Virus record (IMG/VR): IMGVR_UViG_3300029922_002860
Direction: 5' to 3' (one strand)
Source: a virus
Taxonomy: Duplodnaviria; Heunggongvirae; Uroviricota; Caudoviricetes
Length of the DNA stretch: 64,000 nucleotides
The notes below the pieces were generated by a model, which saw only the letters and a program-made list of their open reading frames with translations, searched no databases and was not told the origin of the DNA. Shown piece by piece: positions 3,344 to 58,279 of this stretch. Position 1 is the stretch's first letter; each line of letters starts with the position of its first letter. Made by a program: the position numbers and the translations under genes.

Positions 3344-3368
3344 CTGCCAGATCATACAGACGGGTGCT

Positions 3369-3382
3369 CCCATAATTGTAGT
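3369..3382 (+). promoter_or_regulatory. conserved upstream motif CCCATAATTGTAGT (class A) for the NYN gene
   Basis: Motif immediately 5' of ATG 3383. Confidence 0.5.
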
Positions 3383-41184: not shown

Positions 41185-41255
41185 CGTGGGGATTCAAGGA
41201 AGAGGTCGCTCCCCCGGGGGAGTAGAAACACTCCCCAGAATTCCACGTTTTAGCG
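41185..41255. promoter_or_regulatory. approximately 70-bp imperfect palindrome (AAAACGTGGGGATTC ... GAATTCCACGTTTT) centred on CCCCCGGGGG
   Basis: Fills the gap between the sigma factor stop and the response-regulator start. Confidence 0.4.
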
Positions 41256-48170: not shown

Positions 48171-48887
48171 TTAAGTCTGGATCTCTACCATCGCGTCGAT
48201 GAGCGCAATGTCGCCCCGCAGCTTCTCTTCAGCCGCCACCCTCAGCTGGTGAACGCGGACAACGCTGAGTCCCATCTCGGCAGCAATCTCCTGGAGCGTT
48301 AGCCCACCGAAGTAGTACCGCTGGAGGACACTGGACTGACCGGGCGTCAACCGCTGGATTGCTGCCCGGATAAGGGCGGCGCTTTCGCTCTCCTCTGCAC
48401 TCTCGGCCGGGGAGACAGCATCGGCGTCAACGATGGAGCGAAGGCTACCGCCGCTGACCTCAATGGCGTCGGTGCTTAGCCGCTCAGCCGAAGCGGCAAG
48501 GTTCTCGATCTTGCGGACCTCGTCCTCGGGCACTCCCATTTCGTCTGCGATCTCCGCATCGGTGGGAGCGCGGTTGAGGGTGGACTCCAGGTAGGCGAGC
48601 GCCTTCTGGAGCCCCTTAACCCGAGCCCGGCCGTAGCGAGACAAGGGGTCCAGCCTGCGCATCTCGTCAAGAACAGCTCCCCTTACTCGGCAAACGACGT
48701 AGCCGCGATCCTGCGAGAGATCGTTGTTGAAGTCCCCCAGGACCTCCATCACGGCGAGTTTGCCGGCACTGGCCAAGTCCTGCGCCGATACGTGCGCAGG
48801 CAGGTGCCGGCTCATCTGCGCCACGACGGCGTCAACGATGGGCATGACATCCAGCAGGGAGATGTTTTCTGTGAGTGTGAGGGTCAC
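48171..48887 (-). CDS. FliA/WhiG-like sigma-70 family sigma factor (sigma-28 type)
   Basis: Regions 2, 3 and 4 (LTLQEIAAEMGLSVVRVHQL). CCCCCTATACCC then GTG. Confidence 0.75.
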   Translation of the reverse strand: MTLTLTENISLLDVMPIVDAVVAQMSRHLPAHVSAQDLASAGKLAVMEVLGDFNNDLSQDRGYVVCRVRGAVLDEMRRLDPLSRYGRARVKGLQKALAYLESTLNRAPTDAEIADEMGVPEDEVRKIENLAASAERLSTDAIEVSGGSLRSIVDADAVSPAESAEESESAALIRAAIQRLTPGQSSVLQRYYFGGLTLQEIAAEMGLSVVRVHQLRVAAEEKLRGDIALIDAMVEIQT

Positions 48888-48906: not shown

Positions 48907-48929
48907 GCAGCCGGTTTTTAAGCGGCTGC
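48907..48929 (-). terminator. hairpin terminator overlapping the HNH stop codon
   Basis: GCAGCCG-loop-CGGCTGC followed by TTTCTT on the minus strand. Confidence 0.5.
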
Positions 48930-49568
48930 GTCCTTACGAGATGGCTGAGGGCAGGTGAGAAACAGCAGCCAGTCCGGGTGCTTGGGCGTCCGGATGAGGC
49001 TGCAACGGGGAAGCCCGAGGGGTGCCCGGGGCCTGCGGATCAACTTGAGGCCGCACTCGCTGTTAAGGCGGTTGCCCTTCCACGAGTTGATGGACCTGGT
49101 GCAGGTTACGAGGTTTTCCCAGGTATCGCCGCCGCCACGGTCCTTCGGGATGACGTGGTCGATGTTCGCCTCCTCCGGCCGCAGGCGTTTGCCCGTGTAC
49201 TGGCACCGCCACCCGTCACGCTCGTAGACCCCCTGGGGGGAGAGGCGAGGGCGTGCGTGAGGCATGTCAGCGTAGGCAGGAGCCATGATAACCGTGGGCG
49301 CCCGCAGCCATCCACGTGCGGTCTCGATCACCACGTCGAAGGGGCGCACGGGAAGAGAGACCCACTCCGCCCATGTGACTGTGCGACGCTCCAAAGGCTC
49401 ATCGTAGTTCGGGCGGCCGTCTGGACCGAGAGCGTACTCGATGTCGAAGGCCAAGGCGGGGTTCTCGCCCGTCATGGCAGTGATCGCGTCACGAACGGTC
49501 CTTGCGTCAATCGGGAGGTGAACCCGGTTGACATCGAGAACAATGGTCTGGTCGAGGACTGCGCTCAT
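48918..49568 (-). CDS. HNH endonuclease
   Basis: CQYTG...DHVIPKDRGG...WENL...C motif set. Confidence 0.8.
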   Translation of the reverse strand: MSAVLDQTIVLDVNRVHLPIDARTVRDAITAMTGENPALAFDIEYALGPDGRPNYDEPLERRTVTWAEWVSLPVRPFDVVIETARGWLRAPTVIMAPAYADMPHARPRLSPQGVYERDGWRCQYTGKRLRPEEANIDHVIPKDRGGGDTWENLVTCTRSINSWKGNRLNSECGLKLIRRPRAPLGLPRCSLIRTPKHPDWLLFLTCPQPSRKDAAA

Positions 49569-49618: not shown

Positions 49619-49692
49619 TGGCTGCTCGGCTAGGACTCGAACCTAGACACGCAGATTCAGAGTCTGCTGTGCTACCATTACACTACCGGGCA
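49619..49692 (-). tRNA. tRNA-Gln(CTG)
   Basis: Cloverleaf inferred by eye. CCA is encoded. Anticodon loop CTCTGAA. Confidence 0.6.
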
Positions 49693-49693
49693 G

Positions 49694-49777
49694 TGGTGCG
49701 GGGACCGCGATTCGAACGCGGATGCTTTTCAGCGCCAGGTTCTAAAACTGGTGCGTCTACCATTTCGCCACCCCCGC
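49694..49777 (-). tRNA. tRNA-Leu(TAG), type II
   Basis: Acceptor GCGGGGG. Leu-like D arm. Anticodon loop TTTAGAA. Long variable arm. Confidence 0.55.
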
Positions 49778-49810
49778 AAAGTCATGCGCCCGTGTCGGGC
49801 AGGATTAGCG

Positions 49811-50065
49811 CTATAAAAGCGCCTTGAATCGGTTCAGTTCAGCGATGGTGCCGTCAATGTCGCCGCGAAGAACGTCGCGCGTCTTCTCGATGATGTGAGT
49901 CGCGCCCTGTTTCTCAAGGTCCCCGAGGTAAGCTTGCCAATTGGCGTCGAGTACCTTGACCGCCGCCTGCGCGGCGTAGCCCGTTAGCTCCTCGGGGAAC
50001 CCGTCAGGGCGACCCTGCGTTGCTGCGAGACTGTTCACCTTGTCCGCGTAGGCTTTTATTTGCAT
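49811..50065 (-). CDS. small hypothetical helical protein (84 aa) embedded in the tRNA array
   Basis: CGCCATCTTGGCGC then ATG. Confidence 0.5.
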   Translation of the reverse strand: MQIKAYADKVNSLAATQGRPDGFPEELTGYAAQAAVKVLDANWQAYLGDLEKQGATHIIEKTRDVLRGDIDGTIAELNRFKALL

Positions 50066-50093
50066 GCGCCAAGATGGCGGATCTTTCCGTGAA

Positions 50094-50169
50094 TGGAGCC
50101 GGCGATGGGACTCGAACCCGCAACCGCGTGTTTACAAAACACGTGCTCTGCCATTGAGCTACGCCGGCG
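50094..50169 (-). tRNA. tRNA-Thr(TGT)
   Basis: Acceptor GCCGGCG. Anticodon loop TTTGTAA. Two CGCCATCTT copies immediately 5' of the mature end. Confidence 0.65.
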
Positions 50170-50182
50170 AAGATGGCGAAGA

Positions 50183-50277
50183 TGGCGGAGATGGATAGAT
50201 TCGAACTATCGGCGTCAGGGGATACCTGGCGCGGAACTTTAGCAAAGTTCTGGTTTAGACCTCTCACCCACATCTCC
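50183..50277 (-). tRNA. tRNA-Ser(GCT), type II
   Basis: Acceptor GGAGATG. Anticodon loop TTGCTAA. Long variable arm. Confidence 0.6.
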
Positions 50278-50281
50278 AAAA

Positions 50282-50366
50282 TGCCGACGGCCCGACTCGA
50301 ACGGGCACGACCTCGATGGTCACGAGCTTCTGAGACTCGCGTGTCTACCAATTCCACCACGCCGGC
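50282..50366 (-). tRNA. tRNA-Leu(CAG), type II
   Basis: Leu-like D arm. Anticodon loop CTCAGAA. No CCA encoded. Confidence 0.55.
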
Positions 50367-50375
50367 GAAAGAAAA

Positions 50376-50463
50376 TGGCGGTGAGGGCGAGATTCGGACT
50401 CGCGGTACCTCTCGGTACTTCTGTTTTCGAGACAGGTGCCTTAAACCACTCAGCCACCTCACC
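50376..50463 (-). tRNA. tRNA-Ser(CGA), type II
   Basis: Acceptor GGTGAGG. Anticodon loop CTCGAAA. Confidence 0.55.
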
Positions 50464-50472
50464 GTGGAAAGT

Positions 50473-50549
50473 TGGAGCTACGGGCCGGATTTGAACCGGC
50501 ATCATTCGATTTAGAAAATCGAGGCCCTATCCAATTGGACGACCGCAGC
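50473..50549 (-). tRNA. tRNA-Arg(TCT)
   Basis: Anticodon loop TTTCTAA. T arm GCCGGTTCAAATCCGGC. Confidence 0.6.
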
Positions 50550-50565
50550 GGAATCGCTCAGTAAA

Positions 50566-50642
50566 TGGCGCTCCGGCCCTGATTCGAACAGGGAGCCTTC
50601 TCGTTAGGACCGAGCTGCGCTATCCAATTGCGCCACCGGAGC
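50566..50642 (-). tRNA. tRNA-Arg(CCT)
   Basis: Acceptor GCTCCGG. Anticodon loop GTCCTAA. Confidence 0.55.
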
Positions 50643-50829
50643 ACGAAGCCTGAAATGGTGCTTGGCGGGATGGAGGTGATCCTACTCCGGTTGCCCGGGC
50701 CAGCTTATCTCCTCGCCGGCACAAACCCTCCGCAACCGGCTGAGAAAGTGGTGGCCGCTGCCGGATTTTAACCCGCGATTACCCGATTATGGGTCAGGTG
50801 CTTTGAACACTAAGCTAAACGGCCGTAAA

Positions 50830-50906
50830 TGGGGAGACCAACGAGGATCGAACTCGCAACCCCGAGATCCACAATCTCGTGCTCTGCCGATTGAGCTATG
50901 GCCTCC
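50830..50906 (-). tRNA. tRNA-His(GTG) with extra 5' G(-1)
   Basis: G-1 pairs with C73. Anticodon loop TTGTGGA. Confidence 0.65.
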
Positions 50907-50912
50907 ATGAAG

Positions 50913-50987
50913 TGGCGCCCGATAGCGGGGTCGAACCGCTGCCTGAACCTTGAGAGGGTCCCGTCCTGACCGCTAGACGAACCGGGC
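50913..50987 (-). tRNA. tRNA-Glu(CTC)
   Basis: Glu-type D arm. Anticodon loop CTCTCAA. Confidence 0.6.
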
Positions 50988-51012
50988 GAAAGAGTTGCCG
51001 TGAATGAAAATG

Positions 51013-51086
51013 TGCCCAAGGCGCGATTTGAACGCGCGACCCCAAGTTTCGGAAACTTGTGCTCTATCCAACTGAGCTACCTGGGC
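51013..51086 (-). tRNA. tRNA-Arg(CCG)
   Basis: Anticodon loop TTCCGAA. No CCA encoded. Confidence 0.6.
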
Positions 51087-51093
51087 AAAAGAA

Positions 51094-51175
51094 TGCGCCT
51101 GAGCAGGGTCGAACTGCTATGCCTTGCGGCACGTGTCCCTCAAACACGCGTGTATCCCAATTCCACCACAGGCGC
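51094..51175 (-). tRNA. tRNA-Leu(GAG), type II
   Basis: Anticodon loop TTGAGGG. Confidence 0.55.
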
Positions 51176-51185
51176 GTAAAGTGAT

Positions 51186-51273
51186 TGGCGGTGGGTGCAT
51201 GATTCGAACACGCGGCGCGGTGAAGCGCTCCCAATTTCAAGCTGGGTGCATTAGGCCACTCTGCCAACCCACC
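51186..51273 (-). tRNA. tRNA-Ser(TGA), type II
   Basis: Anticodon loop CTTGAAA. Confidence 0.55.
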
Positions 51274-51279
51274 AAAATA

Positions 51280-51366
51280 CGGAAGCGGAAAGATTCGAAC
51301 TTTCGGCGCCATTGTGGACGCGTCTCGTTTCCAACGAGGTGCCTTAAACCGCTCAGCCACGCTTCC
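51280..51366 (-). tRNA. tRNA-Ser(GGA), type II
   Basis: Anticodon loop TTGGAAA. Confidence 0.5.
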
Positions 51367-51373
51367 GAGTAAA

Positions 51374-51449
51374 TGGAGCCACGGGTCGGATTCGAACCGA
51401 CGACCTACGCTTTACGAAAGCGTCGCTCTGCCAACTGAGCTACCGAGGC
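51374..51449 (-). tRNA. tRNA-Thr(CGT)
   Basis: Anticodon loop TTCGTAA. Confidence 0.6.
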
Positions 51450-51466
51450 ATCAAATGATGAAATCG

Positions 51467-51552
51467 TGGGCTAGGCCGGATTCGAACCGGCATGAGTTGT
51501 TAACCTCGGCAGGGTTTGAGCCTGCTGCGTCTCCCAATTCCGCCACACGCCC
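51467..51552 (-). tRNA. tRNA-Leu(CAA), type II (two acceptor-stem mismatches)
   Basis: Anticodon stem-loop GCAGG-CTCAAAC-CCTGC. Confidence 0.45.
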
Positions 51553-51562
51553 ATGGAAAGAA

Positions 51563-51635
51563 AGCTCGTGACCAGGATCGAACTGGTGACCTCGTCCTTA
51601 CCAAGGACGTGCTCTACCGACTGAGCTACGCGAGC
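51563..51635 (-). tRNA. tRNA-Thr(GGT)
   Basis: Anticodon loop TTGGTAA. CCCCATCTT abuts the mature 5' end. Confidence 0.6.
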
Positions 51636-51648
51636 AAGATGGGGAGAT

Positions 51649-51723
51649 TGGTGGCGCGCCGGGGACTCGAACCCCGAACCTACTGATTAAGAGTCAGCTG
51701 CTCTACCATTGAGCTAGCACGCC
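51649..51723 (-). tRNA. tRNA-Lys(CTT)
   Basis: Anticodon loop CTCTTAA. Confidence 0.6.
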
Positions 51724-51739
51724 ATAGGAAAGAATTCGT

Positions 51740-51813
51740 TGGCTGCCTAGCGTGGTTTCGAACCACGACCAAGAGGGTCAAAGCCTCCCGTGCTACCATT
51801 ACACCACCAGGCA
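51740..51813 (-). tRNA. tRNA-Gln(TTG)
   Basis: Anticodon loop CTTTGAC. Confidence 0.6.
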
Positions 51814-51821
51814 ACGAAAAA

Positions 51822-51894
51822 TCGGGGTGGCAGGATTCGAACCTGCGGCCTCTTCGTCCCGAACGAAGCGCTCTGCCAGACTAAGCTACACCCC
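51822..51894 (-). tRNA. tRNA-Pro(CGG)
   Basis: Anticodon loop TTCGGGA. Confidence 0.6.
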
Positions 51895-51895
51895 G

Positions 51896-51975
51896 GAAAT
51901 TGGCGGTCTCGCTCGGTTTGGAACCGAGGACCTGTCGCCTGAAACGCAACGGATCTACCGATGAGAAAAGGGGCG
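51896..51975 (-). pseudogene. tRNA 3'-half fragment (T arm, acceptor and CCA, with no matching 5' half)
   Basis: CTCGG-TTCCAAA-CCGAG T-arm-like hairpin followed by CGAGACC-G-CCA. No complementary 5' acceptor strand is present. Confidence 0.3.
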
Positions 51976-51978
51976 AAA

Positions 51979-52188
51979 TTAGTTCTGCGTGTCTTGCCCT
52001 GCCAGCTTCCAGATGTCGTTGCGGACATCATTGATTATCTCCTCGGCTGCCTCGACGGAGGCCATCTCTTCGGCGGTGAGCGCACGGCCTTTCGCCATGA
52101 CCAGCCCATTGAGCACCGTATGGACATCGCCCAGGCGTTTGTCGATGGACTTGGTGAGGACGGAGCGGAGGGGGGAGCTGGATTCCAT
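51979..52188 (-). CDS. small hypothetical helical protein (69 aa) within the tRNA array
   Basis: GACCACCATCTTGGGAT then ATG. Confidence 0.45.
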   Translation of the reverse strand: MESSSPLRSVLTKSIDKRLGDVHTVLNGLVMAKGRALTAEEMASVEAAEEIINDVRNDIWKLAGQDTQN

Positions 52189-52332
52189 ATCCCAAGATGG
52201 TGGTCTCTCGCAGTAAGAGAAATGGAAAGCGGCGAGGGCTGATTTCTTGCAAACCACCTCAATGAGCCGAGGTGCTTGATCTGTGAGACCTAAGTCCCAG
52301 AACGGCTAATTCACTAGAGACTGCCCGTGCGC

Positions 52333-52629
52333 TCAATGCTGCGGGGTGTGCGGCGTCCAACCCTTGCTCTCACACACGCACTCGATGAACTGGAGGCACT
52401 TAACCGTATCAAACCAGTCCTTCTCGCAGAGGTGAAGAACCCACTGGGCGAGAGCATGGTAATCGGGGATGCGGGACAGCGAAACGTCGTACGCGTTCGA
52501 CGGATTACCTCCCTTATGGATGACCACGCAGCCACGCTCGATCCGTACGAACTGCGGAAATGTAGGCGGATTGCCCGTGTTTATGCGGCGAAACCCCAGT
52601 TGCCCTAGGGGCGATGGTTGTTTTTTCAT
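52333..52629 (-). CDS. Cys-rich hypothetical protein (98 aa) within the tRNA array
   Basis: CCACCATCTTGGTTTGC then ATG. The motif overlaps the CCA end of the upstream tRNA. Confidence 0.45.
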   Translation of the reverse strand: MKKQPSPLGQLGFRRINTGNPPTFPQFVRIERGCVVIHKGGNPSNAYDVSLSRIPDYHALAQWVLHLCEKDWFDTVKCLQFIECVCESKGWTPHTPQH

Positions 52630-52640
52630 GCAAACCAAGA

Positions 52641-52715
52641 TGGTGGCAGGACCAGGATTCGAACCTGGGATAAGACGATGTCATCGTCCCGTCATAACCG
52701 CTTAACGATCCCGCC
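52641..52715 (-). tRNA. tRNA-Val(GAC)
   Basis: Anticodon loop ATGACAT. Confidence 0.55.
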
Positions 52716-52721
52716 GAAATT

Positions 52722-52794
52722 TGGACCTGACCGGACTCGAACCGGTCGCCCCCTGCTTGCAAAGCAGGCGCTCTTCCAGATGAGCTACAGGCCC
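52722..52794 (-). tRNA. tRNA-Ala(TGC)
   Basis: G3:U70 pair. Anticodon loop TTTGCAA. Confidence 0.65.
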
Positions 52795-52800
52795 GAAAAA

Positions 52801-52877
52801 TGGCGGGATGGACCGAGTTCGAATCGGCAACCTTTCGCGTGACAGGCGAATGCTCTAACCAGTTGAGCTACCACCCC
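52801..52877 (-). tRNA. tRNA-Asp(GTC)
   Basis: Anticodon loop CTGTCAC. Confidence 0.6.
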
Positions 52878-52883
52878 AAAAAT

Positions 52884-52960
52884 TGGAGACCCGCCGCGGA
52901 GTTGAACCGCGCGCTTCCTCGTTTGCTGCGAGGTCCGTTCACCAGGCTCGGTCGCGGGCC
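52884..52960 (-). tRNA. tRNA-Cys(GCA), atypical (A33, unusual D arm and T loop)
   Basis: Anticodon stem-loop CCTCG-CAGCAAA-CGAGG. Confidence 0.4.
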
Positions 52961-52969
52961 ACTGAAAAA

Positions 52970-53041
52970 TCGGGGCGGGCAGGATCGAACTGCCGATCTC
53001 GCGGCCCCCAGCCGTGCGCGTTGCCACTTCGCTACGCCCCG
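52970..53041 (-). tRNA. tRNA-Pro(GGG)
   Basis: Anticodon loop CTGGGGG. Confidence 0.5.
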
Positions 53042-53047
53042 TAAAGA

Positions 53048-53122
53048 TGGCTGCTCGGGCTGGGGTCGAACCAGCGACCAAGTGCTTAACAGGCACCTGC
53101 TCTGCCACTGAGCTACCGAGCA
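53048..53122 (-). tRNA. tRNA-Asn(GTT)
   Basis: Anticodon loop CTGTTAA. Confidence 0.6.
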
Positions 53123-53129
53123 ATGAGAG

Positions 53130-53205
53130 TGGTGCGCGAGGAGGGACTCGAACCCCCAACCCTCTCGGTGTAAACGAGATGCTCTCACCATTAAGCTACC
53201 CGCGC
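53130..53205 (-). tRNA. tRNA-Val(TAC)
   Basis: Anticodon loop TTTACAC. Confidence 0.6.
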
Positions 53206-53269
53206 ATTTTGAAACTGGAATCGGATTGGGAACACGGAAACGGAGGTTGCCGTTGACCATCGCGTATAT

Positions 53270-53860
53270 TTGATCCCCGACGTGCCGAGAGCGTGTCAAA
53301 ACCCTGAGGGATACTTGGAGGCTCGTGGGGTTGCGGTGATCGAAGTGCCGCCGTACCAAGGCATTCTTGGTGCAGGCACAGCGGGCTACGTAAAGGAGGA
53401 AAAGACTGTCTATATCTCGTCCGCCGCAAAGGGGAAACGCCGCCAGTGGGCTCTATGGCATGAGGCCGCCCATGTTGCGGACTATAAGCACGCCAGTTTC
53501 AGTTTCGAGTACGGCGCTGTTTCCCTGCGCCTTAAGACCGCGCTGCTTGCGCACAAGGAATTCCTTGTGCGGTTGCATACCCGCGGACCGCGCCTCTCGG
53601 AAGCCTTCATCGCCACCCTCCCATCCGCAGCGCAATTATTGATACAGTTGGAAAGGGAGCGAGAGATGATCCTTCAGCGGACGATTCGCATGCAACCCTG
53701 CGAGTTGTTCGCGGACGCTACCGCCTGCCTGTTCTGCTGCCACCGACTATTCTTCAAGCGGGCTGGCGGGCTGTTCCACCCCTTGTCCAAGGAGCTTCGC
53801 CGCTACCGATTTCCCCTTGAAGACCTCATCGACATGCGCCTCGACGATGTGCGCGCCTGA
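53270..53860 (+). CDS. ImmA/IrrE-family zinc metallopeptidase (HEAAH motif), encoded on the plus strand inside the tRNA array
   Basis: WHEAAHVADYKH matches HExxH. The N-terminal region is typical of the COG2856 family. Confidence 0.6.
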   Translation: MIPDVPRACQNPEGYLEARGVAVIEVPPYQGILGAGTAGYVKEEKTVYISSAAKGKRRQWALWHEAAHVADYKHASFSFEYGAVSLRLKTALLAHKEFLVRLHTRGPRLSEAFIATLPSAAQLLIQLEREREMILQRTIRMQPCELFADATACLFCCHRLFFKRAGGLFHPLSKELRRYRFPLEDLIDMRLDDVRA

Positions 53861-53867
53861 AATCGTG

Positions 53868-53940
53868 GACCTGGACGGACTTAAACCGTCAACCTCTTCG
53901 ATGCCATCGAAGCGCTCTATCAGCTGAGCTACAGGCCCAA
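53868..53940 (-). tRNA. tRNA-Ala(GGC)
   Basis: G3:U70 pair. Anticodon loop ATGGCAT. Confidence 0.6.
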
Positions 53941-53946
53941 GAAAAT

Positions 53947-54033
53947 TGGTCGGCAGCGCGGGGGTCGAACCCGCACGAGCTTGCGCTCACCGGAGTTTAA
54001 GCCCGGCGCGTCTACCAGTTCCGCCACCCGCCG
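53947..54033 (-). tRNA. tRNA-Leu(TAA), type II
   Basis: Anticodon loop CTTAAAC. Confidence 0.55.
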
Positions 54034-54036
54034 AAA

Positions 54037-54111
54037 ATCGGGGCGACAGGGTTCGAACCTGCGACCTCCTGGTCCCAAACCAGGCGCTCTACCAGACTAA
54101 GCTACACCCCG
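54037..54111 (-). tRNA. tRNA-Pro(TGG)
   Basis: Anticodon loop TTTGGGA. Confidence 0.6.
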
Positions 54112-54116
54112 GAAAA

Positions 54117-54192
54117 TGGCAGGAACGGAGGGAGTCGAACCCCCAACCAACGGTTTTGGAGACCGCTACTCTACCAATTGAGCTACGTTCCT
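54117..54192 (-). tRNA. tRNA-Trp(CCA)
   Basis: Anticodon loop CTCCAAA. Confidence 0.6.
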
Positions 54193-54203
54193 ATCTCTGA
54201 AAT

Positions 54204-54282
54204 TGGGTGCAGAGACTGGATTTCAACCAGCGATCTCCACCTTATGAGGGTGGCGAGGACAAGCAGGCTCCTCCACTCTGCA
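54204..54282 (-). tRNA. tRNA-Met(CAT), atypical D loop and T loop
   Basis: Anticodon stem-loop CCACC-CTCATAA-GGTGG. Confidence 0.45.
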
Positions 54283-54335
54283 ACAAAGCTGTGTTCGTCG
54301 TCGCGAGAGAAAAGCTCGCGCCCGACTCTGGAAAA

Positions 54336-54482
54336 TGTTCGCGACGGGAATCGAACCCGCGCCACCCCTTGCGGGGGTTTTCCGTCGCAGCATTATCCGA
54401 CGCAGTTGCCTAGGCATGCGTCAGTGCCGCGCCGGCCGCTAGGCTACGTGAACCCGCAGTGCTGCCACTACACCACGCGAAC
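54336..54482 (-). ncRNA. tRNA-like locus with a roughly 70-nt insertion in the anticodon region (intron-containing tRNA or disrupted pseudogene; possible Val(CAC))
   Basis: Perfect acceptor stem GTTCGCG/CGCGAAC, a Gln-like D arm and a canonical T arm are spread over 147 nt. Insertion begins after ...GCGGG-TTCACG. Confidence 0.4.
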
Positions 54483-54490
54483 GAAAATCG

Positions 54491-54562
54491 TGGACCGAAG
54501 GGGGATCGAACCCCTGACCTCATCGTTGCGAACGACGCGCTCTTCCACTGAGCTACCGGCCC
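54491..54562 (-). tRNA. tRNA-Ala(CGC)
   Basis: G3:U70 pair. Anticodon loop TTCGCAA. Confidence 0.55.
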
Positions 54563-54569
54563 ATCGAAA

Positions 54570-54646
54570 TGGTGGTCTCGGGTGGGTTCGAACCACCGAC
54601 CCCGCGCTTATCAAGCGCGTGCTCTAACCAGCTGAGCTACGGGACC
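54570..54646 (-). tRNA. tRNA-Ile(GAT)
   Basis: Anticodon loop TTGATAA. Confidence 0.6.
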
Positions 54647-54655
54647 ATAAGTGGA

Positions 54656-54729
54656 TGGAGCGGTAGCCGGGAATCGAACCCGGGACACCTGTTTGGAAAA
54701 CAGAGGTTTTGCCACTAAACTACAACCGC
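54656..54729 (-). tRNA. tRNA-Gly(TCC)
   Basis: Anticodon loop TTTCCAA. Confidence 0.55.
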
Positions 54730-54734
54730 GAGAT

Positions 54735-54812
54735 TGGCGGTAACGGGTGGGTTCGAACCACCGACACGCGGCTTTTCAGACCGCTGCTCTACCAATACTG
54801 AGCTACGTCACC
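54735..54812 (-). tRNA. tRNA-Phe(GAA)
   Basis: Anticodon loop CTGAAAA. Confidence 0.6.
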
Positions 54813-54830
54813 AAAAATGGTTCTGCGAAA

Positions 54831-54917
54831 TGGTGCGTCAGGAAGGACTCGGACCCTCGAAGCCCCGAAGGGCGGCGCGTTTACAGCGCGCTGCATTTGC
54901 CGCTCTGCCACTGACGC
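54831..54917 (-). tRNA. tRNA-Tyr(GTA), type II
   Basis: Anticodon loop CTGTAAA. Long variable arm. Confidence 0.55.
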
Positions 54918-54924
54918 GTGAAAG

Positions 54925-55001
54925 TGGGGGAACTGGGTGGACTTGAACCACCGACATTCGCCTTATGAGGGCGCTCCTCTGCCAACTGAGGTACAGTTCC
55001 A
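54925..55001 (-). tRNA. tRNA-Met(CAT) second copy (elongator, initiator or Ile2 not distinguishable)
   Basis: Anticodon loop CTCATAA. Three G-C pairs in the anticodon stem. Confidence 0.5.
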
Positions 55002-55018
55002 TGCGTATCCAGAATTGT

Positions 55019-55090
55019 GGGACACCTGGGACTCGAACCCAGAACCTACTGCTTAAAAGGCAGCAGCTCTGCCATTGAGCTAGTGACCCA
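55019..55090 (-). tRNA. tRNA-Lys(TTT)
   Basis: Anticodon loop CTTTTAA. Confidence 0.55.
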
Positions 55091-55362
55091 TACGAAAGTG
55101 TCTCCGCCTCGGCCATGAATGCAGGCCCGTGGGGCTCAACCGCGCTTCGCATCGCGGGCACTCTGATACCAACCGACGGCACAAGCCGACGCGTTTAGCC
55201 CTGCCTGCCGCGCGAAGCCGCAGCGCAGACTGAACGGAGATTCTTGAAAGTGTCCGATGGGTCCCAGGTCGCTCCAGGATGCTCAGGTTCTCACCCGCAT
55301 GTGACGCAAGGCTCCACCGCCTTGGACGCCGCTCCCAGCCCTCGATGCCCCACCGGAAATTA

Positions 55363-55436
55363 AGCGGTAAGAGGGACTCGAACCCTCGGCCTCCACGTTG
55401 GCAACGTGGCGCTCTAACCGACTGAGCTACTACCGC
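55363..55436 (-). tRNA. tRNA-Gly(GCC)
   Basis: Anticodon loop TTGCCAA. Confidence 0.6.
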
Positions 55437-55552
55437 GAGAGAGATTATTCCTGCACGCTACGCTTCGGCTTCGTGCTTGCCGGGTACCACAGCACCAGGG
55501 GACCCGACGGAGTTAAGTGCCCGCTGTCTCGGGTCAACGATAGCAGGGAGAA

Positions 55553-55629
55553 TGGCGCGAACGGCAGGGTTCGAACCTGCAACTTCCTGATCCGTAGTCA
55601 GGGGATCTATCCAGTTGATCTACGTTCGC
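55553..55629 (-). tRNA. tRNA-Arg(ACG)
   Basis: Anticodon loop CTACGGA. Confidence 0.6.
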
Positions 55630-55639
55630 GTGAAAGTGT

Positions 55640-55710
55640 CGCCCCCAGCCAGAATCGGACTGGCGCGCCGCGCGTGAAAGGCGCGTGTCCTGCCACTAGA
55701 CGATGAGGGC
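55640..55710 (-). tRNA. tRNA-Glu(TTC), first gene of the array; extended acceptor pairing with flanks
   Basis: Anticodon loop CTTTCAC. Glu-type D arm. Leader GTC pairs with trailer GAC. Confidence 0.5.
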
Positions 55711-56010
55711 GACATGAAAGTGAAAAGCTGGGTGGCGGGCACGAATGCCCCTTACCGCGCGAGCGCGCGACCACCCAGCTCTTGCCATCGCCTGGCCACG
55801 AATGTGGCTGGAGCCTCACGGAGTTTAGGCCGATTTACGCTCCGGCGCTGGCTTCTATCTGAAGAAAAGAACCACCTGCCGTCCCTCTCGGCTTTCGCCG
55901 GATTGGACCCGCCCCCAGTGTGGGAAGGCGTCTTCGCTGATTCGTGGGGCTCAGCTGTGAAGCCACTTGGAAATTGGAAAGGTGTAGGACCCGGTCCGGA
56001 AGTGGCTTGG

Positions 56011-56039
56011 CGTCTGGCCAACAAAAAACCCACTTCCGG
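56011..56039 (-). terminator. strong rho-independent terminator upstream of the tRNA array
   Basis: Perfect 9-bp stem CCCACTTCC-gggg-GGAAGTGGG followed by a T6GTT run on the minus strand. Confidence 0.7.
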
Positions 56040-56333
56040 GGTGGAAGTGGGTCGGCTCAGTGTGCGGTTGCTTTCCGCCCTAGCTGGCTTTCCCACCTCC
56101 TGTGACGCCTGCGCTATCCAGATTAAACTGATAACCTTGCTTTGAGGTTATCCTCGGGATGGCGGCCCACATTGGGCACAGCGTCAGCGAGCGTCCTTCG
56201 GGGCTTGTCCCGAGGGCCGGCGCTAATTTCGGCTGTGAATGGAGGGTCATTTGCGAAGATGTGTTATGACTGTCTGAGTTGCTGAACGGATGATGAAGGA
56301 GAATTTTTAAGAGGGGTGCTAAAGAAAGATGGA

Positions 56334-56981: not shown

Positions 56982-56995
56982 AATTATGGGGTGCC
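56982..56995 (-). promoter_or_regulatory. conserved upstream motif CACCCCATAATT (class A) with zero spacer to the ATG
   Basis: Motif 3' edge coincides with the ATG of gene 56688..56981. Confidence 0.5.
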
Positions 56996-57526
56996 GCCGG
57001 CCTCAGGGGCCGAGAGGGAGTGAATGCGCCCGACCGCCAAATCGGGTACGTGCCACTCAGGGTAGCCGAACACTGCCGGAATATGGGTCCGCCTCTCCGC
57101 AATCGCAGCCTCCCATCGGTGATTTCCGTCCTGACGGTGCCAGGACCAGTCGCTTGTCGCCGCACCACAGGGGCTCGCAAGGATCGTGATGGGTGGGAGG
57201 GAGCCTCCCTTCCTTAGCATGTTCCGGTACTTGCGGACGCCGCGGCGATACGCTCCGCCTTCCCCAGGCTCCATGGCCACGGGCAGTGGCAGTTCCACAA
57301 CCGGCGAGAACAAAAAGCCGTCCGGATCAAATGGCAGGGCGAATGAGTCGCGGCCATTGAAGTGGAACTCCGAGAACCACGCATCGGAGTTCTCATACGG
57401 GCTCCACTCACCCATAGGAGGAAGAGTTGCGAGAGCGCAGCGGTAGCGCTCGGGCAGCGTGGGCGCCTGGTGAATCTGCCGGCAGGGGAGGGGTGTCTGG
57501 TTGCCCACAAGGGCGCTCTGGTCCAT
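56984..57526 (-). CDS. hypothetical protein (180 aa)
   Basis: CACCAGCTTGGTCT then ATG. Confidence 0.45.
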   Translation of the reverse strand: MDQSALVGNQTPLPCRQIHQAPTLPERYRCALATLPPMGEWSPYENSDAWFSEFHFNGRDSFALPFDPDGFLFSPVVELPLPVAMEPGEGGAYRRGVRKYRNMLRKGGSLPPITILASPCGAATSDWSWHRQDGNHRWEAAIAERRTHIPAVFGYPEWHVPDLAVGRIHSLSAPEAGGTP

Positions 57527-58217: not shown

Positions 58218-58279
58218 ACCACCCTTAGTTCCTTGTTCGTTAGTTCCACCCTTAGTGCAGATAGAAACCACCCTTAGTC
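58218..58279 (+). repeat. three direct repeats of CCACCCTTAGT upstream of, and overlapping, the start of the LexA-like regulator gene
   Basis: Copies at about 58219, 58247 and 58268. CCCATAATCTTCACG lies just upstream. Confidence 0.5.

What the first reader, a model, noticed from the sequence alone, without database searches (positions are those of the whole stretch)
49619..55710. About 6-kb minus-strand tRNA array of roughly 43 genes, punctuated by protein genes and irregular elements
Hand-folding gives 43 tRNAs covering all 20 amino acids, often with several isoacceptors: Leu x6, Ser x5, Arg x5, Thr x3, Pro x3, Ala x3, two CAT tRNAs, and a His with G-1. CCA is encoded in only about half. 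Several members are atypical (Cys with A33, Met with a degenerate D loop, Glu with leader-trailer pairing). Three small motif-driven protein genes sit inside (49811-50065, 51979-52188, 52333-52629), as does a plus-strand ImmA/IrrE-type metallopeptidase gene (53270-53860). An HNH endonuclease gene sits just downstream, with a strong terminator (56011-56039) just upstream. Arrays of this size are characteristic of huge phages and some megaplasmids, and imply translational autonomy or codon-usage compensation.
Basis: partly seen in the sequence, partly recalled or inferred. Interest (0 to 1): 0.7.

Follow-up and report, generated by a model that had tools for sequence, protein, structure and literature searches.

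The report
Giant mobile element's complete tRNA array
A 6-kb run of 44 transfer-RNA genes, one for almost every anticodon, sits on a DNA element of at least 260 kb linked to Verrucomicrobia; this kind of array is already known from huge phages and megaplasmids, so it is a large, unusually complete example and not a new kind of thing.

Summary
With introns allowed it adds a 44th: tRNA-Val(CAC), carrying a 70-nt insert after position 37. Rfam's tRNA model independently supports 42 of the 44. The set has 42 different anticodons, each present once except CAT (three copies). It covers all 20 amino acids and lacks only Gly-CCC. CCA is encoded in 28 of 44. Some reader counts were off: Leu is 5, Ser 4, Arg 4, CAT 3.

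The replicon is at least 260 kb, consists mostly of orphan genes, and has its own DnaE, DnaN, ParA, sigma factors, RNR and RNA ligase. I could not decide between huge phage and megaplasmid. A diverged relative (L200) shows 16 compensatory base-pair changes across three orthologous tRNAs, so the genes are under selection.

The array is complete and not redundant. Codon usage matches three genes on a neighbouring verrucomicrobial flank (RSCU r=0.91). This favours a self-sufficient or back-up decoding set over codon compensation.

In one sample, two reciprocal junction contigs show site-specific recombination within a 19-nt core of the array's tRNA-Pro(CGG), joining the element to verrucomicrobial DNA.

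Verdict: a new, very complete member of a known kind, with an unexplained insert.

The parts
56018..56053 (-). Intrinsic terminator that closes the upstream transcription unit: 11-bp stem, 5-nt loop, then a T run.
   Evidence: sequence read.
55712..56017 (-). Non-coding leader of about 300 nt. The array promoter is presumed to lie here, but no promoter was identified.
   Evidence: No sigma-70 consensus site. The ORFs here lack a coding GC pattern. No Rfam hit.
55638..55711 (-). tRNA-Glu(TTC), the first gene. No encoded CCA. Four leader-trailer pairs extend the acceptor stem.
   Evidence: Rfam 51.7 bits.
55553..55629 (-). tRNA-Arg(ACG), CCA encoded.
   Evidence: 61.8 bits.
55437..55552 (-). 116-nt spacer of unknown nature.
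   Evidence: No tRNA, Rfam hit or ORF. Fold z-score +0.1.
55363..55436 (-). tRNA-Gly(GCC), no CCA.
   Evidence: 71.9 bits.
55090..55362 (-). 273-nt spacer of unknown nature.
   Evidence: No tRNA, Rfam hit or convincing ORF. Folds no better than shuffled sequence.
55017..55089 (-). tRNA-Lys(TTT), no CCA.
   Evidence: 66.3 bits.
54925..55000 (-). tRNA with anticodon CAT, CCA encoded. It has no initiator marks. Its T arm resembles E. coli tRNA-Ile2, so it is a candidate lysidine tRNA-Ile for ATA codons (inference from recalled sequence).
   Evidence: 61.4 bits; cloverleaf.
54831..54917 (-). tRNA-Tyr(GTA), 87 nt with a long variable arm (the bacterial type), CCA encoded.
   Evidence: 50.2 bits.
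54735..54812 (-). tRNA-Phe(GAA), CCA encoded.
   Evidence: 63.3 bits.
54656..54729 (-). tRNA-Gly(TCC), CCA encoded.
   Evidence: 63.5 bits.
54570..54646 (-). tRNA-Ile(GAT), CCA encoded.
   Evidence: 66.0 bits.
54490..54562 (-). tRNA-Ala(CGC), no CCA.
   Evidence: 61.8 bits.
54336..54482 (-). tRNA-Val(CAC), interrupted after position 37 by a 70-nt insert (54377-54446) that folds into a long hairpin. No CCA. The variable region is 9-10 nt.
   Evidence: ARAGORN -i; Rfam 42.5 bits with an insert in the anticodon loop; insert fold z-score -3.1; coordinates.
54204..54282 (-). Atypical tRNA with anticodon CAT: U1-A72, no GG in the D loop, T loop TTGAAAT. CCA encoded.
   Evidence: 45.1 bits.
54117..54192 (-). 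tRNA-Trp(CCA), CCA encoded.
   Evidence: 68.7 bits.
54038..54111 (-). tRNA-Pro(TGG), no CCA.
   Evidence: 67.7 bits.
53947..54033 (-). tRNA-Leu(TAA), CCA encoded.
   Evidence: 40.7 bits.
53865..53938 (-). tRNA-Ala(GGC), no CCA, no GG in the D loop.
   Evidence: 61.1 bits.
53270..53860 (+). Antisense ORF filling the gap between two tRNA genes (196 aa from TTG; called as 174 aa from 53336). It belongs to a rare family with an invariant WHEAxH motif and an ELFAxAxAC motif, so it is a putative zincin-like metallopeptidase.
   Evidence: Gene-like GC1/2/3. Only itself found in the word-indexed search. Two remote homologues at 35-36% identity. No family match. Weak fold hits to IrrE/PprI.
53130..53205 (-). 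tRNA-Val(TAC), CCA encoded.
   Evidence: 69.1 bits.
53048..53122 (-). tRNA-Asn(GTT), CCA encoded.
   Evidence: 66.4 bits.
52970..53041 (-). tRNA-Pro(GGG), no CCA.
   Evidence: 52.1 bits.
52884..52960 (-). tRNA-Cys(GCA) with A33 in place of U33, a 3-bp D stem and U73. CCA encoded.
   Evidence: ARAGORN only. Rfam gives only tRNA-Sec at 23.4 bits, below threshold.
52801..52877 (-). tRNA-Asp(GTC), CCA encoded.
   Evidence: 65.0 bits.
52722..52794 (-). tRNA-Ala(TGC), no CCA.
   Evidence: 63.8 bits.
52641..52715 (-). tRNA-Val(GAC), CCA encoded.
   Evidence: 50.8 bits.
52333..52629 (-). Embedded ORF of 98 aa, related to phage proteins of unknown function.
   Evidence: phrog_12459, E 4e-7; gene-like GC pattern; called as a gene in independent assemblies.
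51979..52188 (-). Embedded ORF of 69 aa, no known relatives.
51822..51895 (-). tRNA-Pro(CGG), no CCA. It contains the 19-nt recombination core TTCGGGACGAAGAGGCCGC at 51845-51863.
   Evidence: 68.5 bits; junction contigs L001 and L207.
51740..51813 (-). tRNA-Gln(TTG), CCA encoded.
   Evidence: 58.5 bits.
51649..51723 (-). tRNA-Lys(CTT), CCA encoded.
   Evidence: 71.9 bits.
51563..51635 (-). tRNA-Thr(GGT), no CCA.
   Evidence: 64.3 bits.
51466..51552 (-). tRNA-Leu(CAA), no CCA.
   Evidence: 46.2 bits.
51374..51449 (-). tRNA-Thr(CGT), CCA encoded.
   Evidence: 66.5 bits.
51279..51367 (-). tRNA-Ser(GGA), no CCA.
   Evidence: 50.8 bits.
51186..51273 (-). tRNA-Ser(TGA), CCA encoded.
   Evidence: 49.9 bits.
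51094..51175 (-). tRNA-Leu(GAG), no CCA. It has a 3-bp D stem and a variable arm closed by a GCAA loop.
   Evidence: ARAGORN only. No Rfam tRNA hit.
51012..51086 (-). tRNA-Arg(CCG), no CCA.
   Evidence: 66.4 bits.
50913..50987 (-). tRNA-Glu(CTC), CCA encoded.
   Evidence: 53.1 bits.
50830..50905 (-). tRNA-His(GTG) with an encoded G-1 opposite C73. CCA encoded.
   Evidence: 61.5 bits; sequence read.
50749..50824 (-). Atypical tRNA with anticodon CAT: C33, no GG in the D loop, T loop TTAAAAT. CCA encoded.
   Evidence: 55.3 bits.
50643..50748 (-). 106-nt spacer of unknown nature. It ends in GCACCA followed by TTTC, like a tRNA 3' end, so it may be a decayed tRNA (inference).
   Evidence: No tRNA or Rfam hit. 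Fold z-score +0.6. A deleted tRNA remnant is seen in the relative L200.
50566..50642 (-). tRNA-Arg(CCT), CCA encoded.
   Evidence: 54.3 bits.
50473..50549 (-). tRNA-Arg(TCT), CCA encoded.
   Evidence: 56.1 bits.
50376..50463 (-). tRNA-Ser(CGA), CCA encoded.
   Evidence: 52.7 bits.
50282..50366 (-). tRNA-Leu(CAG), no CCA.
   Evidence: 49.9 bits.
50183..50277 (-). tRNA-Ser(GCT), CCA encoded.
   Evidence: 52.6 bits. Nine compensatory pairs against L200.
50094..50168 (-). tRNA-Thr(TGT), CCA encoded.
   Evidence: 64.7 bits. Three compensatory pairs against L200.
49811..50065 (-). Embedded ORF of 84 aa with no relatives. It is absent from the diverged relative L200.
49694..49777 (-). tRNA-Leu(TAG), CCA encoded.
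   Evidence: 50.2 bits.
49619..49692 (-). tRNA-Gln(CTG), the last gene. CCA encoded.
   Evidence: 62.1 bits. Four compensatory pairs against L200.
48918..49568 (-). HNH endonuclease (216 aa), 50 nt downstream of the last tRNA with no terminator between, so probably co-transcribed.
   Evidence: Pfam HNH_4 4e-8. The HNH region resembles the Cas9/IscB HNH domain. The tRNA-HNH order is conserved in L200 at 67% identity.

Best explanation
This is a co-oriented operon-like array of 44 tRNA genes on a giant extrachromosomal element of at least 260 kb. The element is probably a huge, possibly temperate, phage or a phage-like megaplasmid, and its host lineage is most likely Verrucomicrobiota (Chthoniobacterales-like).

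Shown:
- The genes are real, and at least three of them are under selection for the cloverleaf.
- They form a complete, non-redundant decoding set: 42 anticodons and all 20 amino acids, including tRNAs for the rarest codons and a probable lysidine tRNA-Ile.
- They are packed with 1-24 nt T-rich spacers.
- They follow a terminator and a leader of about 300 nt.

Inferred:
- Transcription starts in the leader and produces one or a few polycistronic precursors. The antisense ORF at 53270-53860 probably splits the array into at least two units.
- Host RNase P and 3' processing enzymes cut out the tRNAs. The 16 genes without CCA are finished by the host CCA-adding enzyme.
- The purpose is to make translation of the element's several hundred genes independent of the host tRNA pool. 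That matters when host transcription is shut off or when host tRNAs are depleted or cleaved by tRNA-targeting defences. It is not a top-up for a few rare codons.
- The HNH endonuclease and the small ORFs are mobile passengers typical of phage tRNA regions.
- One array gene, tRNA-Pro(CGG), also serves as a site-specific recombination site.
For: - Gene reality: ARAGORN finds 43 genes, plus one more when introns are allowed. Rfam supports 42 of 44.
- Selection: against the 67%-identity relative L200, Thr-TGT, Gln-CTG and Ser-GCT show 3, 4 and 9 double compensatory changes and no broken pairs.
- Completeness: each anticodon occurs once, CAT three times, and only Gly-CCC is missing.
- Not tuned to codon use: tRNAs exist for TTA (1% of Leu codons), AGA (4%), CTA (6%) and ATA (9%), just as for the commonest codons. 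GGG is 29% of Gly codons yet has no dedicated tRNA. RSCU correlates at r=0.91 with three verrucomicrobial genes on the joined flank.
- Processing signals: TTTC occurs within 9 nt of the 3' end in 23 of 44 trailers, against 3% in background.
- Transcription frame: a terminator lies upstream, and there is none before the HNH gene.
- Replicon: contigs reach 260,824 bp and the neighbouring proteins are orphans. It carries DnaE, PIN-PhoH and a tyrosine recombinase, DnaN and a helicase, and RNR and RNA ligase PF09414.
- Anticodon-loop oddities: Cys has A33 where the one verrucomicrobial tRNA-Cys available has U33, and one CAT tRNA has C33. This fits the idea that phage tRNAs escape anticodon nucleases (PMC10264068; PMC11555353).
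- HNH genes and tRNA-repair cassettes recur next to phage tRNA clusters among this HNH's homologues.
- Host link: reciprocal junction contigs L001 and L207, with a MetRS 84% identical to that of a Verrucomicrobiae MAG.
Against: - There are no expression, processing or aminoacylation data.
- No promoter was identified.
- The host is inferred from one sample's junctions and three flank genes.
- The element uses A/T-ending rare codons somewhat more than those flank genes (GC3 0.73 against 0.84), so some codon compensation is not excluded.
- No CAT tRNA carries the initiator marks, so autonomy is incomplete.
- Several members may not work: Val-CAC has an insert with no known way of removal, and Leu-GAG and Cys fail the Rfam tRNA model.
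- No capsid, terminase or conjugation genes were seen, so 'phage' is unproven.
- No tRNA-targeting defence was shown in any host.
Confidence: 0.6

Rival explanations
1. Codon-usage compensation. The array supplies tRNAs for codons that the element uses more often than its host does.
For: The element's GC3 (0.73) is lower than that of the three joined verrucomicrobial genes (0.84). TTA, CTA, ATA, AGA and CGA are used more per 1000 codons in the element. All of these codons have dedicated tRNAs in the array.
Against: Every anticodon is present once, including those for the commonest codons. Nothing is duplicated for codons the element uses more. Overall RSCU correlates at r=0.91 with the flank genes. 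The host sample is only 1,176 codons.
Confidence: 0.15
2. A host-serving reserve set, as in the L-arrays of bacteria and megaplasmids (for example the Anabaena trn operon). It would be normally silent and induced when the translation machinery is impaired, helping the cell survive.
For: The array is long, non-periodic and carried on a horizontally mobile replicon, as described for L-arrays (PMC8421152). ParA, sigma factors and two-component genes give the replicon a plasmid-like side. A LexA-type DNA-binding protein is encoded 2.5 kb upstream.
Against: Phage-type contents: PhoH-PIN, RNR, RNA ligase, an HNH inside the tRNA region, PHROG-only homologues and polyvalent-protein domains. L-arrays mostly add redundancy, but here the set is a full decoder. 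No regulatory link has been shown.
Confidence: 0.15
3. A largely decaying or selfish array. The tRNA genes would be hitch-hiking with homing endonucleases, and many would be non-functional.
For: Val-CAC is interrupted. Three spacers of 106-273 nt have no recognisable content. The relative L200 carries an internally deleted Leu-like remnant. Several members have aberrant D or T loops or an unusual position 33.
Against: There are 16 compensatory pair changes and no broken pairs in three orthologues. No anticodon is duplicated or missing apart from Gly-CCC. 42 of 44 score as tRNA in two independent methods.
Confidence: 0.05
4. The primary tRNA complement of a cellular chromosome or chromid, not that of a mobile element.
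For: It is a complete set. GC content (about 0.60) is even across the window. Bacterial-type features are present: G-1 on His and a class II Tyr.
Against: No initiator-type tRNA. No rRNA or housekeeping genes in about 96 kb. Most proteins are orphans or match only PHROGs. The element has no match in 185,579 GTDB species genomes. It exists both uninterrupted and recombined with verrucomicrobial DNA.
Confidence: 0.03

Closest known systems
tRNA array units and 'L-arrays' of bacteria and their plasmids or ICEs (Tran et al. 2016, PMC4758250; Santamaria-Gomez et al. 2021, PMC8421152; M. avium giant linear plasmids, PMC12803027)
   Same: At least 20 co-oriented tRNA genes at 2 or more per kb. The order is non-periodic. 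The array is carried on a horizontally mobile replicon. It supplies tRNAs on top of a cellular set.
   Different: With 44 genes it is one above the 43-gene maximum reported in that survey. It contributes nearly every anticodon once and does not add redundancy. The carrier is a mostly orphan-gene element of at least 260 kb with phage-like contents. No DNA-level synteny with any array in 72,556 plasmids (at most 12% of the query covered).
tRNA gene clusters of phages, such as mycobacteriophages and T4/T5-like and huge phages (Morgado and Vicente 2019, PMC6409571)
   Same: A dense cluster interspersed with small ORFs and an HNH homing-type endonuclease. An RNA ligase lies elsewhere on the replicon. 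Proposed roles are the same.
   Different: That survey found clusters of 15-37 genes giving 5-34 codons, and only 8 covered all 20 isotypes. This one has 44 genes, 42 anticodons and all 20 isotypes. No synteny with any of 50,697 phage records (at most 10% covered). No virion genes have been seen yet.
Lak megaphage tRNAs with 'enigmatic introns' (Devoto et al. 2019, PMC6784885)
   Same: A short insert in the anticodon loop of a tRNA on a giant bacterial element. It is detected only when intron-aware prediction is used, belongs to no known intron class and has no known removal mechanism.
   Different: The lineage, GC content (60% against 26%) and host phylum differ. Only one interrupted gene is present here. 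No intron-less allele is available for comparison, because all copies are identical.
tRNA genes as attachment sites of tyrosine integrases, with crossover in the anticodon loop (established knowledge, recalled from Williams 2002, not re-read here)
   Same: The two reciprocal junctions share a 19-nt core that starts at the first base of the anticodon loop. One junction rebuilds a full-length, hybrid tRNA. The other keeps the displaced 3' part.
   Different: The target tRNA sits inside a tRNA array on a giant mobile element, not in a chromosome. The rebuilt tRNA-Pro has acceptor-stem mismatches. I could not decide which partner is the 'guest' or which integrase acts.
Homing endonucleases in phage tRNA regions, for example T4-type SegB (PMC13096335)
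   Same: An endonuclease gene abuts the tRNA genes, and the tRNA-HNH order is conserved in a diverged relative.
   Different: It is an HNH_4-type enzyme (the SegB class is GIY-YIG, from my own knowledge). No activity or target site is known.

Membership tests
tRNA array unit (Tran et al. 2016) | At least 20 tRNA genes in one region | tested here: met
   43 genes by ARAGORN, 44 with the interrupted Val-CAC.
tRNA array unit (Tran et al. 2016) | Density of at least 2 tRNA genes per kb | tested here: met
   44 genes in 6,093 bp, or 7.2 per kb.
L-array (Santamaria-Gomez et al. 2021) | Long, non-periodic array on horizontally acquired DNA | tested here: met
   No repeating isotype order. The most similar pair of array tRNAs is 86% identical. 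The replicon is a mobile element.
L-array (Santamaria-Gomez et al. 2021) | Supernumerary to a housekeeping set; silent and induced under translational stress | not testable with these tools
   No host genome and no transcript data.
Phage tRNA gene cluster | Located on a virus genome (capsid, portal or terminase present) | tested here: inconclusive
   No structural or packaging gene in about 96 kb examined by Pfam and PHROGs.
Group I intron in a bacterial tRNA | Self-splicing ribozyme core, usually over 200 nt, in the anticodon loop | tested here: not met
   The insert is 70 nt and forms a simple hairpin. No Rfam intron or ribozyme hit at E<=1.
Archaeal/eukaryal-type tRNA intron | Insert at the canonical 37/38 position | tested here: met
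   ARAGORN places the insert between positions 37 and 38.
Archaeal/eukaryal-type tRNA intron | Bulge-helix-bulge motif at the splice sites, and a splicing endonuclease in the system | tested here: not met
   In the predicted folds both exon-intron boundaries are unpaired, with no 4-bp helix between 3-nt bulges (plus inspection). The tRNAs are of the bacterial type. No endonuclease was identified.
ImmA/IrrE (Peptidase M78, COG2856) for ORF 53270-53860 | Profile match to the family | tested here: not met
   No Pfam hit even at E<=10. No NCBIfam or PHROG hit. No PDB sequence hit.
ImmA/IrrE (Peptidase M78, COG2856) for ORF 53270-53860 | HExxH zincin active-site helix and fold | tested here: inconclusive
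   WHEAxH is invariant in 3 homologues. The AF2 model has pLDDT 61. The top Foldseek hits are PprI/IrrE at E 0.015-0.05 and TM about 0.27, followed by minimal zincins.
HNH endonuclease for ORF 48918-49568 | HNH domain profile match | tested here: met
   PF13395 4.4e-8, PF14279 2.5e-7, PF01844 1.3e-6.
Bacterial initiator tRNA (among the three CAT genes) | Unpaired 1:72 (C1xA72) and three G-C pairs closing the anticodon stem | tested here: not met
   The 1:72 pairs are G-C, U-A and G-C. None has the GGG/CCC stem (cloverleaves; sequence).

The most novel reading that the evidence does not exclude
The 70-nt insert at position 37/38 of tRNA-Val(CAC) is a true intron. It would be removed in a bacterial cell by a protein-dependent cut-and-rejoin pathway supplied by the element itself, for example one of its NYN or PIN nucleases together with its PF09414 RNA ligase. 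That would be a form of bacterial tRNA splicing that is neither group I nor bulge-helix-bulge dependent. It would complete a decoder set in which Val-CAC is otherwise the only missing Val anticodon.
Probability: 0.1. Interest if true: 0.8.

Novelty: new member of a known kind. Interest (0 to 1): 0.5.

Why it matters
- It is one of the largest and most complete single tRNA arrays described. It has 44 genes and 42 anticodons, against published maxima of 43 genes for bacterial L-arrays and 37 for phage clusters in the surveys read here.
- It sits on a giant, almost entirely uncharacterised element of Verrucomicrobiota, a phylum for which I know of few described phages or plasmids.
- A one-of-each set is a clean natural test between two ideas about why mobile elements carry tRNAs: codon compensation, or replacing and shielding the host tRNA pool.
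- The interrupted Val-CAC adds a second, unrelated case to the unexplained tRNA inserts of Lak megaphages.
- The reciprocal junctions show that a tRNA inside such an array can act as a recombination site. This gives both a host assignment and a handle on the element's lifestyle.

Tried and rejected
- **Close relatives in public records.** Megablast and blastn of the array against phages and plasmids found only scattered single-tRNA matches and no synteny.
- **Classifying the replicon through DnaE.** The best identity to phages, plasmids and IMG/VR contigs is about 40%, which is uninformative.
- **The element in GTDB genomes.** A search with the 488-aa flank protein found nothing.
- **Relatives through embedded or flanking proteins.** The HExxH ORF and the 488-aa protein are orphans in the word-indexed search. 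IMG/VR relatives of the HNH are at most 45% identical, and the best one has no nearby tRNAs.
- **Covariation from other copies.** Every copy fetched from other assemblies is 99.99-100% identical over the array. Only the 1.5-kb relative L200 was useful.
- **Hidden tRNAs in the three long spacers.** No hit appeared in ARAGORN at lowered thresholds or in Rfam at E<=1. The spacers fold no better than shuffled sequence and have no credible ORFs. The extra low-threshold ARAGORN calls on the plus strand overlap real tRNAs and were discarded.
- **YrlA, tmRNA or ribozyme readings of the Val-CAC region.** No supporting Rfam hit.
- **A bulge-helix-bulge at the insert.** Absent.
- **A JGI scan for the reciprocal junction.** It returned only one normal contig. 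The junction was later found through the 98-aa ORF.
- **Structure of the HExxH ORF from a single sequence.** pLDDT 40.6, unusable.
- **Assembly chimera as the explanation for L001.** Rejected because the same sample holds the reciprocal junction with the same 19-nt core.
- **Synteny between the L001 flank and its closest MAG.** Only the MetRS gene is shared, so attB could not be reconstructed.

Full report
**1. Observation**

ARAGORN on the whole window reports 43 tRNA genes. All are on the minus strand between 49619 and 55711, and there are none elsewhere. Rfam's general tRNA model gives 40 hits above its gathering score in the same interval (40.7-71.9 bits). Searches of smaller regions add Ser-TGA (49.9 bits) and the CAT tRNA at 54204 (45.1 bits).

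Two ARAGORN calls, Leu-GAG and Cys-GCA, are never recovered by the Rfam tRNA model. Both still draw as regular cloverleaves with the expected identity marks: G37 and a long variable arm for Leu, U73 for Cys.

One Rfam hit has no ARAGORN counterpart in default mode. It spans 147 nt at 54336-54482. With introns allowed, ARAGORN calls it tRNA-Val(CAC) with a 70-nt insert between positions 37 and 38. The array therefore has 44 genes in 6,093 bp.

Leu is 5, Ser 4, Arg 4 and CAT 3. CCA is encoded in 28 of 44 genes.

These details are right:
- A33 in Cys, and degenerate D loops in two CAT tRNAs.
- G-1 opposite C73 in His.
- Leader-trailer pairing around the first gene, Glu-TTC.
- The HNH gene and the upstream terminator.

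**2. Anatomy**

The anticodon table is the most telling feature. There are 42 different anticodons, each present once, plus CAT three times. Every four-codon box except Gly has its G34, U34 and C34 tRNAs, with Arg using ACG and CCG. Every two-codon purine-ending box has both its U34 and C34 tRNAs. Only Gly-CCC is absent. Val-CAC, the interrupted gene, is exactly the anticodon needed to complete the Val box.

None of the three CAT tRNAs has bacterial initiator marks. One (54925-55000) has a T arm like E. coli tRNA-Ile2, as I recall that sequence, and is a candidate ATA reader.

Isoacceptors are diverged, with the closest pair 86% identical, so the array did not arise by recent duplication.

Spacers are mostly 1-24 nt and T-rich. 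TTTC occurs within 9 nt of the 3' end in 23 of 44 trailers, against 3% in background.

Larger gaps interrupt the array. Four hold ORFs with the same GC1/GC2/GC3 pattern as the element's genes, whereas ORFs that overlap tRNAs or the leader lack it:
- 84 aa (49811-50065), 69 aa (51979-52188) and 98 aa (52333-52629) on the tRNA strand. The 98-aa ORF hits phrog_12459 at 4e-7.
- A 174-196-aa ORF on the opposite strand (53270-53860).

Three further gaps of 106, 116 and 273 nt contain nothing I could recognise.

Upstream lie a strong minus-strand terminator and a non-coding leader of about 300 nt without a sigma-70 consensus promoter. Downstream, the HNH gene starts 50 nt after the last tRNA.

**3. 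The antisense ORF**

- No Pfam, NCBIfam or PHROG family matches it, even at E<=10. No PDB sequence matches either.
- An exhaustive HMMER search found two remote homologues of the same length at 35-36% identity. WHEAxH and a later ELFAxAxAC motif are invariant among them. One homologue sits among tightly packed small genes on short contigs, not in a tRNA array.
- A three-sequence AlphaFold model reaches pLDDT 61, with 73-82 over the sheet and the HExxH helix.
- Its best Foldseek hits are Deinococcus PprI/IrrE (E 0.015-0.05, TM about 0.27), followed by minimal zincins.

A zincin-like metallopeptidase is plausible. Membership of the ImmA/IrrE family is not shown.

**4. The replicon**

- The same array, 99.99-100% identical, occurs in many metagenome assemblies.
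- The flanking 488-aa protein occurs on a contig of 260,824 bp and has no relative in 5.8 billion proteins.
- The window and about 30 kb of extra flank encode:
  - DnaE, PIN-PhoH, an SPFH protein, a radical-SAM protein and a tyrosine recombinase;
  - a ParA-like ATPase, a DHH phosphoesterase, an NYN nuclease and a T2SSE ATPase;
  - a second T2SSE ATPase, DnaN and a helicase;
  - several sigma factors;
  - two-component proteins and the polyvalent-protein domain ART-PolyVal;
  - the polyvalent-protein domain LPD1, a class II RNR-like protein and an RNA ligase, PF09414 at E 3e-21.
- Most other ORFs match nothing.
- No capsid, terminase, portal, relaxase or VirB4/VirD4 gene was seen, and no aminoacyl-tRNA synthetase or CCA-adding enzyme.
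- DnaE is only about 40% identical to anything in the phage, plasmid or IMG/VR collections.
- The element is absent from 185,579 GTDB species genomes.

I lean towards a huge phage or phage-like element, because of PhoH, RNR, RNA ligase, the HNH in the tRNA region and the PHROG-only homologues. This is not shown.

**5. Evidence that the genes function**

Identical copies carry no covariation signal. However, the HNH has a 67%-identical homologue on a 1.5-kb contig, L200. On that contig the order is Ser-GCT, Thr-TGT, Gln-CTG, HNH, the same as at the 3' end of this array.

The three orthologous tRNA pairs differ at many positions, yet every predicted pair is kept. Double compensatory changes number 3 (Thr), 4 (Gln) and 9 (Ser).

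In L200 the 84-aa ORF is missing. Leu-TAG is replaced by a 62-nt remnant in which the acceptor 5' strand and the start of the D arm are fused to the T arm, the acceptor 3' strand and CCA. So the array family gains and loses members while the retained tRNAs stay under selection.

**6. What it is for**

Across 13,165 codons from 38 window genes, codon usage is GC3-rich (0.73). The rarest codons each have their own tRNA just as the commonest do: TTA 1%, AGA 4%, CTA 6%, ATA 9% of their families. GGG makes up 29% of Gly codons but has no dedicated tRNA. A set tuned to codon demand would not look like this.

The element's RSCU correlates at r=0.91 with three verrucomicrobial genes physically joined to it in one contig. 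The element does use A/T-ending codons somewhat more than they do.

I therefore favour a self-sufficient or back-up decoder. It would keep the element's translation going when host tRNA supply fails or is attacked. Published support for this view:
- The proposal that phage tRNAs counter tRNA-depleting defences through anticodon-loop changes (PMC10264068).
- Experimental cases of phage tRNAs evading retron and PARIS defences (PMC11555353, PMC11464382).
- The description of mycobacterial array units as putative anti-defence systems (PMC12803027).

A33 in Cys (where the one verrucomicrobial tRNA-Cys I could fetch has U33), C33 in one CAT tRNA, and the RNA ligase on the replicon all fit this. None of them proves it. 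Codon compensation, a host-serving inducible reserve as in Anabaena (PMC8421152) and partial decay remain as rivals.

**7. The interrupted Val-CAC**

Both exons together score as a tRNA. The insert is a stable hairpin (z-score -3.1). It is unique in all the DNA I hold and present in every copy.
- It is too short for a group I intron.
- It has no Rfam match.
- It has no bulge-helix-bulge.
- The surrounding tRNAs are of the bacterial type (class II Tyr, encoded G-1 on His).
- The spliced product would have G37 and a 9-10-nt variable region, both unusual for Val.

The nearest precedent is the 'enigmatic introns' in Lak megaphage tRNAs (PMC6784885). I think it is more likely an insertion that inactivated or altered the gene than a spliced intron. 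The question is open and easy to test with tRNA-seq.

**8. A recombination site inside the array**

In sample ERZ27249030 two contigs break the array at the same place.
- **L001 (189 kb)** carries about 10 kb of foreign DNA, then the 3' part of tRNA-Pro(CGG), the 20 downstream tRNAs, the HNH gene and about 179 kb of the element.
- **L207 (61 kb)** carries about 60 kb of the element, the upstream tRNAs, the 98-aa and 69-aa ORFs, and a full-length hybrid tRNA-Pro(CGG). The 3' half of that tRNA differs at five positions and ends in CCA. It is followed by foreign DNA.

All three versions share exactly TTCGGGACGAAGAGGCCGC, from the first base of the anticodon loop to the start of the T stem (window 51845-51863). 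Reciprocal junctions with a common core inside a tRNA are the signature of integrase-type site-specific recombination, not of a chimeric assembly.

The foreign side of L001 encodes a MetRS that is 84% identical to that of a Verrucomicrobiae MAG and 55-67% identical to many Chthoniobacterales.

There are two possible readings:
- The giant element integrates into a verrucomicrobial chromosome.
- A verrucomicrobial integrative island that carries a tRNA-Pro 3' half has inserted into the array.

In either case the host lineage is most likely Verrucomicrobiota. At least 20 of the 23 contigs read show the uninterrupted form.

**9. Comparison and verdict**

The array meets the definition of a tRNA array unit (PMC4758250). 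It fits the description of L-arrays (PMC8421152) and of phage tRNA clusters (PMC6409571). It lies at or just above the top of their reported size ranges, 43 and 37 genes, and is far more complete in anticodons.

It shares no synteny with any annotated phage or plasmid array.

It is a new, unusually complete member of a known kind. It sits on an uncharacterised giant element, with an unexplained tRNA insert and an att-like site as extras.

Noticed in passing
window 51845-51863 (-); L001 about 7700-7747; L207 10735-10811: Reciprocal junction contigs from one sample (ERZ27249030) show site-specific recombination within a 19-nt core of the array's tRNA-Pro(CGG). It joins the element to verrucomicrobial DNA (MetRS 84% identical to a Verrucomicrobiae MAG). 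One junction carries a hybrid tRNA-Pro with acceptor-stem mismatches.
   Followed up: yes
L200 426-1449 (ERZ12298644 scaffold_327251_c1): A diverged relative of the array's 3' end: Ser-GCT, Thr-TGT, a 62-nt internally deleted Leu-like remnant (L200 608-669), Gln-CTG, then an HNH 67% identical to the one here. The 84-aa ORF is absent.
   Followed up: yes
L036 14941-16032 and 11034-13526 (about 3-8 kb beyond window position 1): The element encodes an RNA ligase (PF09414, E 3e-21, with a weak N-terminal HNH-like match) and a class II RNR-like protein. The ligase could serve tRNA repair or exon joining.
   Followed up: partly
L199 4019-9863: A 49%-identical homologue of the HNH lies directly after a full tRNA-repair cassette on another phage-like contig: a T4 Rnl1-type ligase, a PF09414 ligase, an AAA_33 kinase and a metallophosphatase. 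Other homologues sit inside phage tRNA clusters (L013, L014, L019, L033, L196).
   Followed up: partly
window 54356-54385 (+): A terminator-like hairpin with a T run on the plus strand lies inside the Val-CAC gene, formed by the CCCC-GCAA-GGGG region. It could stop antisense transcription coming from the plus-strand ORF 53270-53860.
   Followed up: no
window 50749-50824 and 54204-54282 (-): Two CAT tRNAs lack the D-loop GG and have T loops TTAAAAT and TTGAAAT in place of TTCRANY. The changes at position 56 (A and G) might be matched by U or C in the D loop, which would keep the 19:56 elbow pair. I did not test this.
   Followed up: no
window 50643-50748, 55090-55362, 55437-55552 (-): Three spacers of 106, 273 and 116 nt inside an otherwise tightly packed array. 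They have no tRNA, Rfam family, ORF or unusual folding. The first ends in GCACCA followed by TTTC, like a tRNA 3' end.
   Followed up: partly
window 44094-44966 (-); L036 18517-20730: ART-PolyVal and LPD1 domains, with DUF4314 next to the former. These are 'polyvalent protein' modules typical of phages and conjugative elements.
   Followed up: no
window 12494-13336, 41250-41936, 48171-48887 (-): At least three sigma-70-family genes on the element. The one next to the HNH is FliA/WhiG-like (TIGR02479, 2e-43, below cut-off). This may explain why no sigma-70 consensus promoter precedes the array.
   Followed up: partly
window 35085-36629 (-), 3293-4567 (+), 10680-12497 (+): Three nuclease or phosphoesterase candidates on the same replicon as the array: a PIN-PhoH fusion, an NYN-domain protein and a DHH/DHHA1 protein. 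Whether they act on RNA or tRNA is unknown.
   Followed up: no
window 58255-58734 (+) and 56984-57526 (-): A protein with a LexA-type DNA-binding domain overlaps the start of the 488-aa orphan gene, 2.5 kb upstream of the array. A 180-aa orphan with a DGNHRWE motif lies between them and the array. The first could be a repressor and so a possible partner for the HExxH protein. This is speculation.
   Followed up: no
L001 5716-7418: On the verrucomicrobial side of the junction, a 456-aa orphan is followed by an overlapping 111-aa HEAT-repeat protein. GC3 there is lower (0.61) than in either partner, which suggests an older island at the same site.
   Followed up: partly
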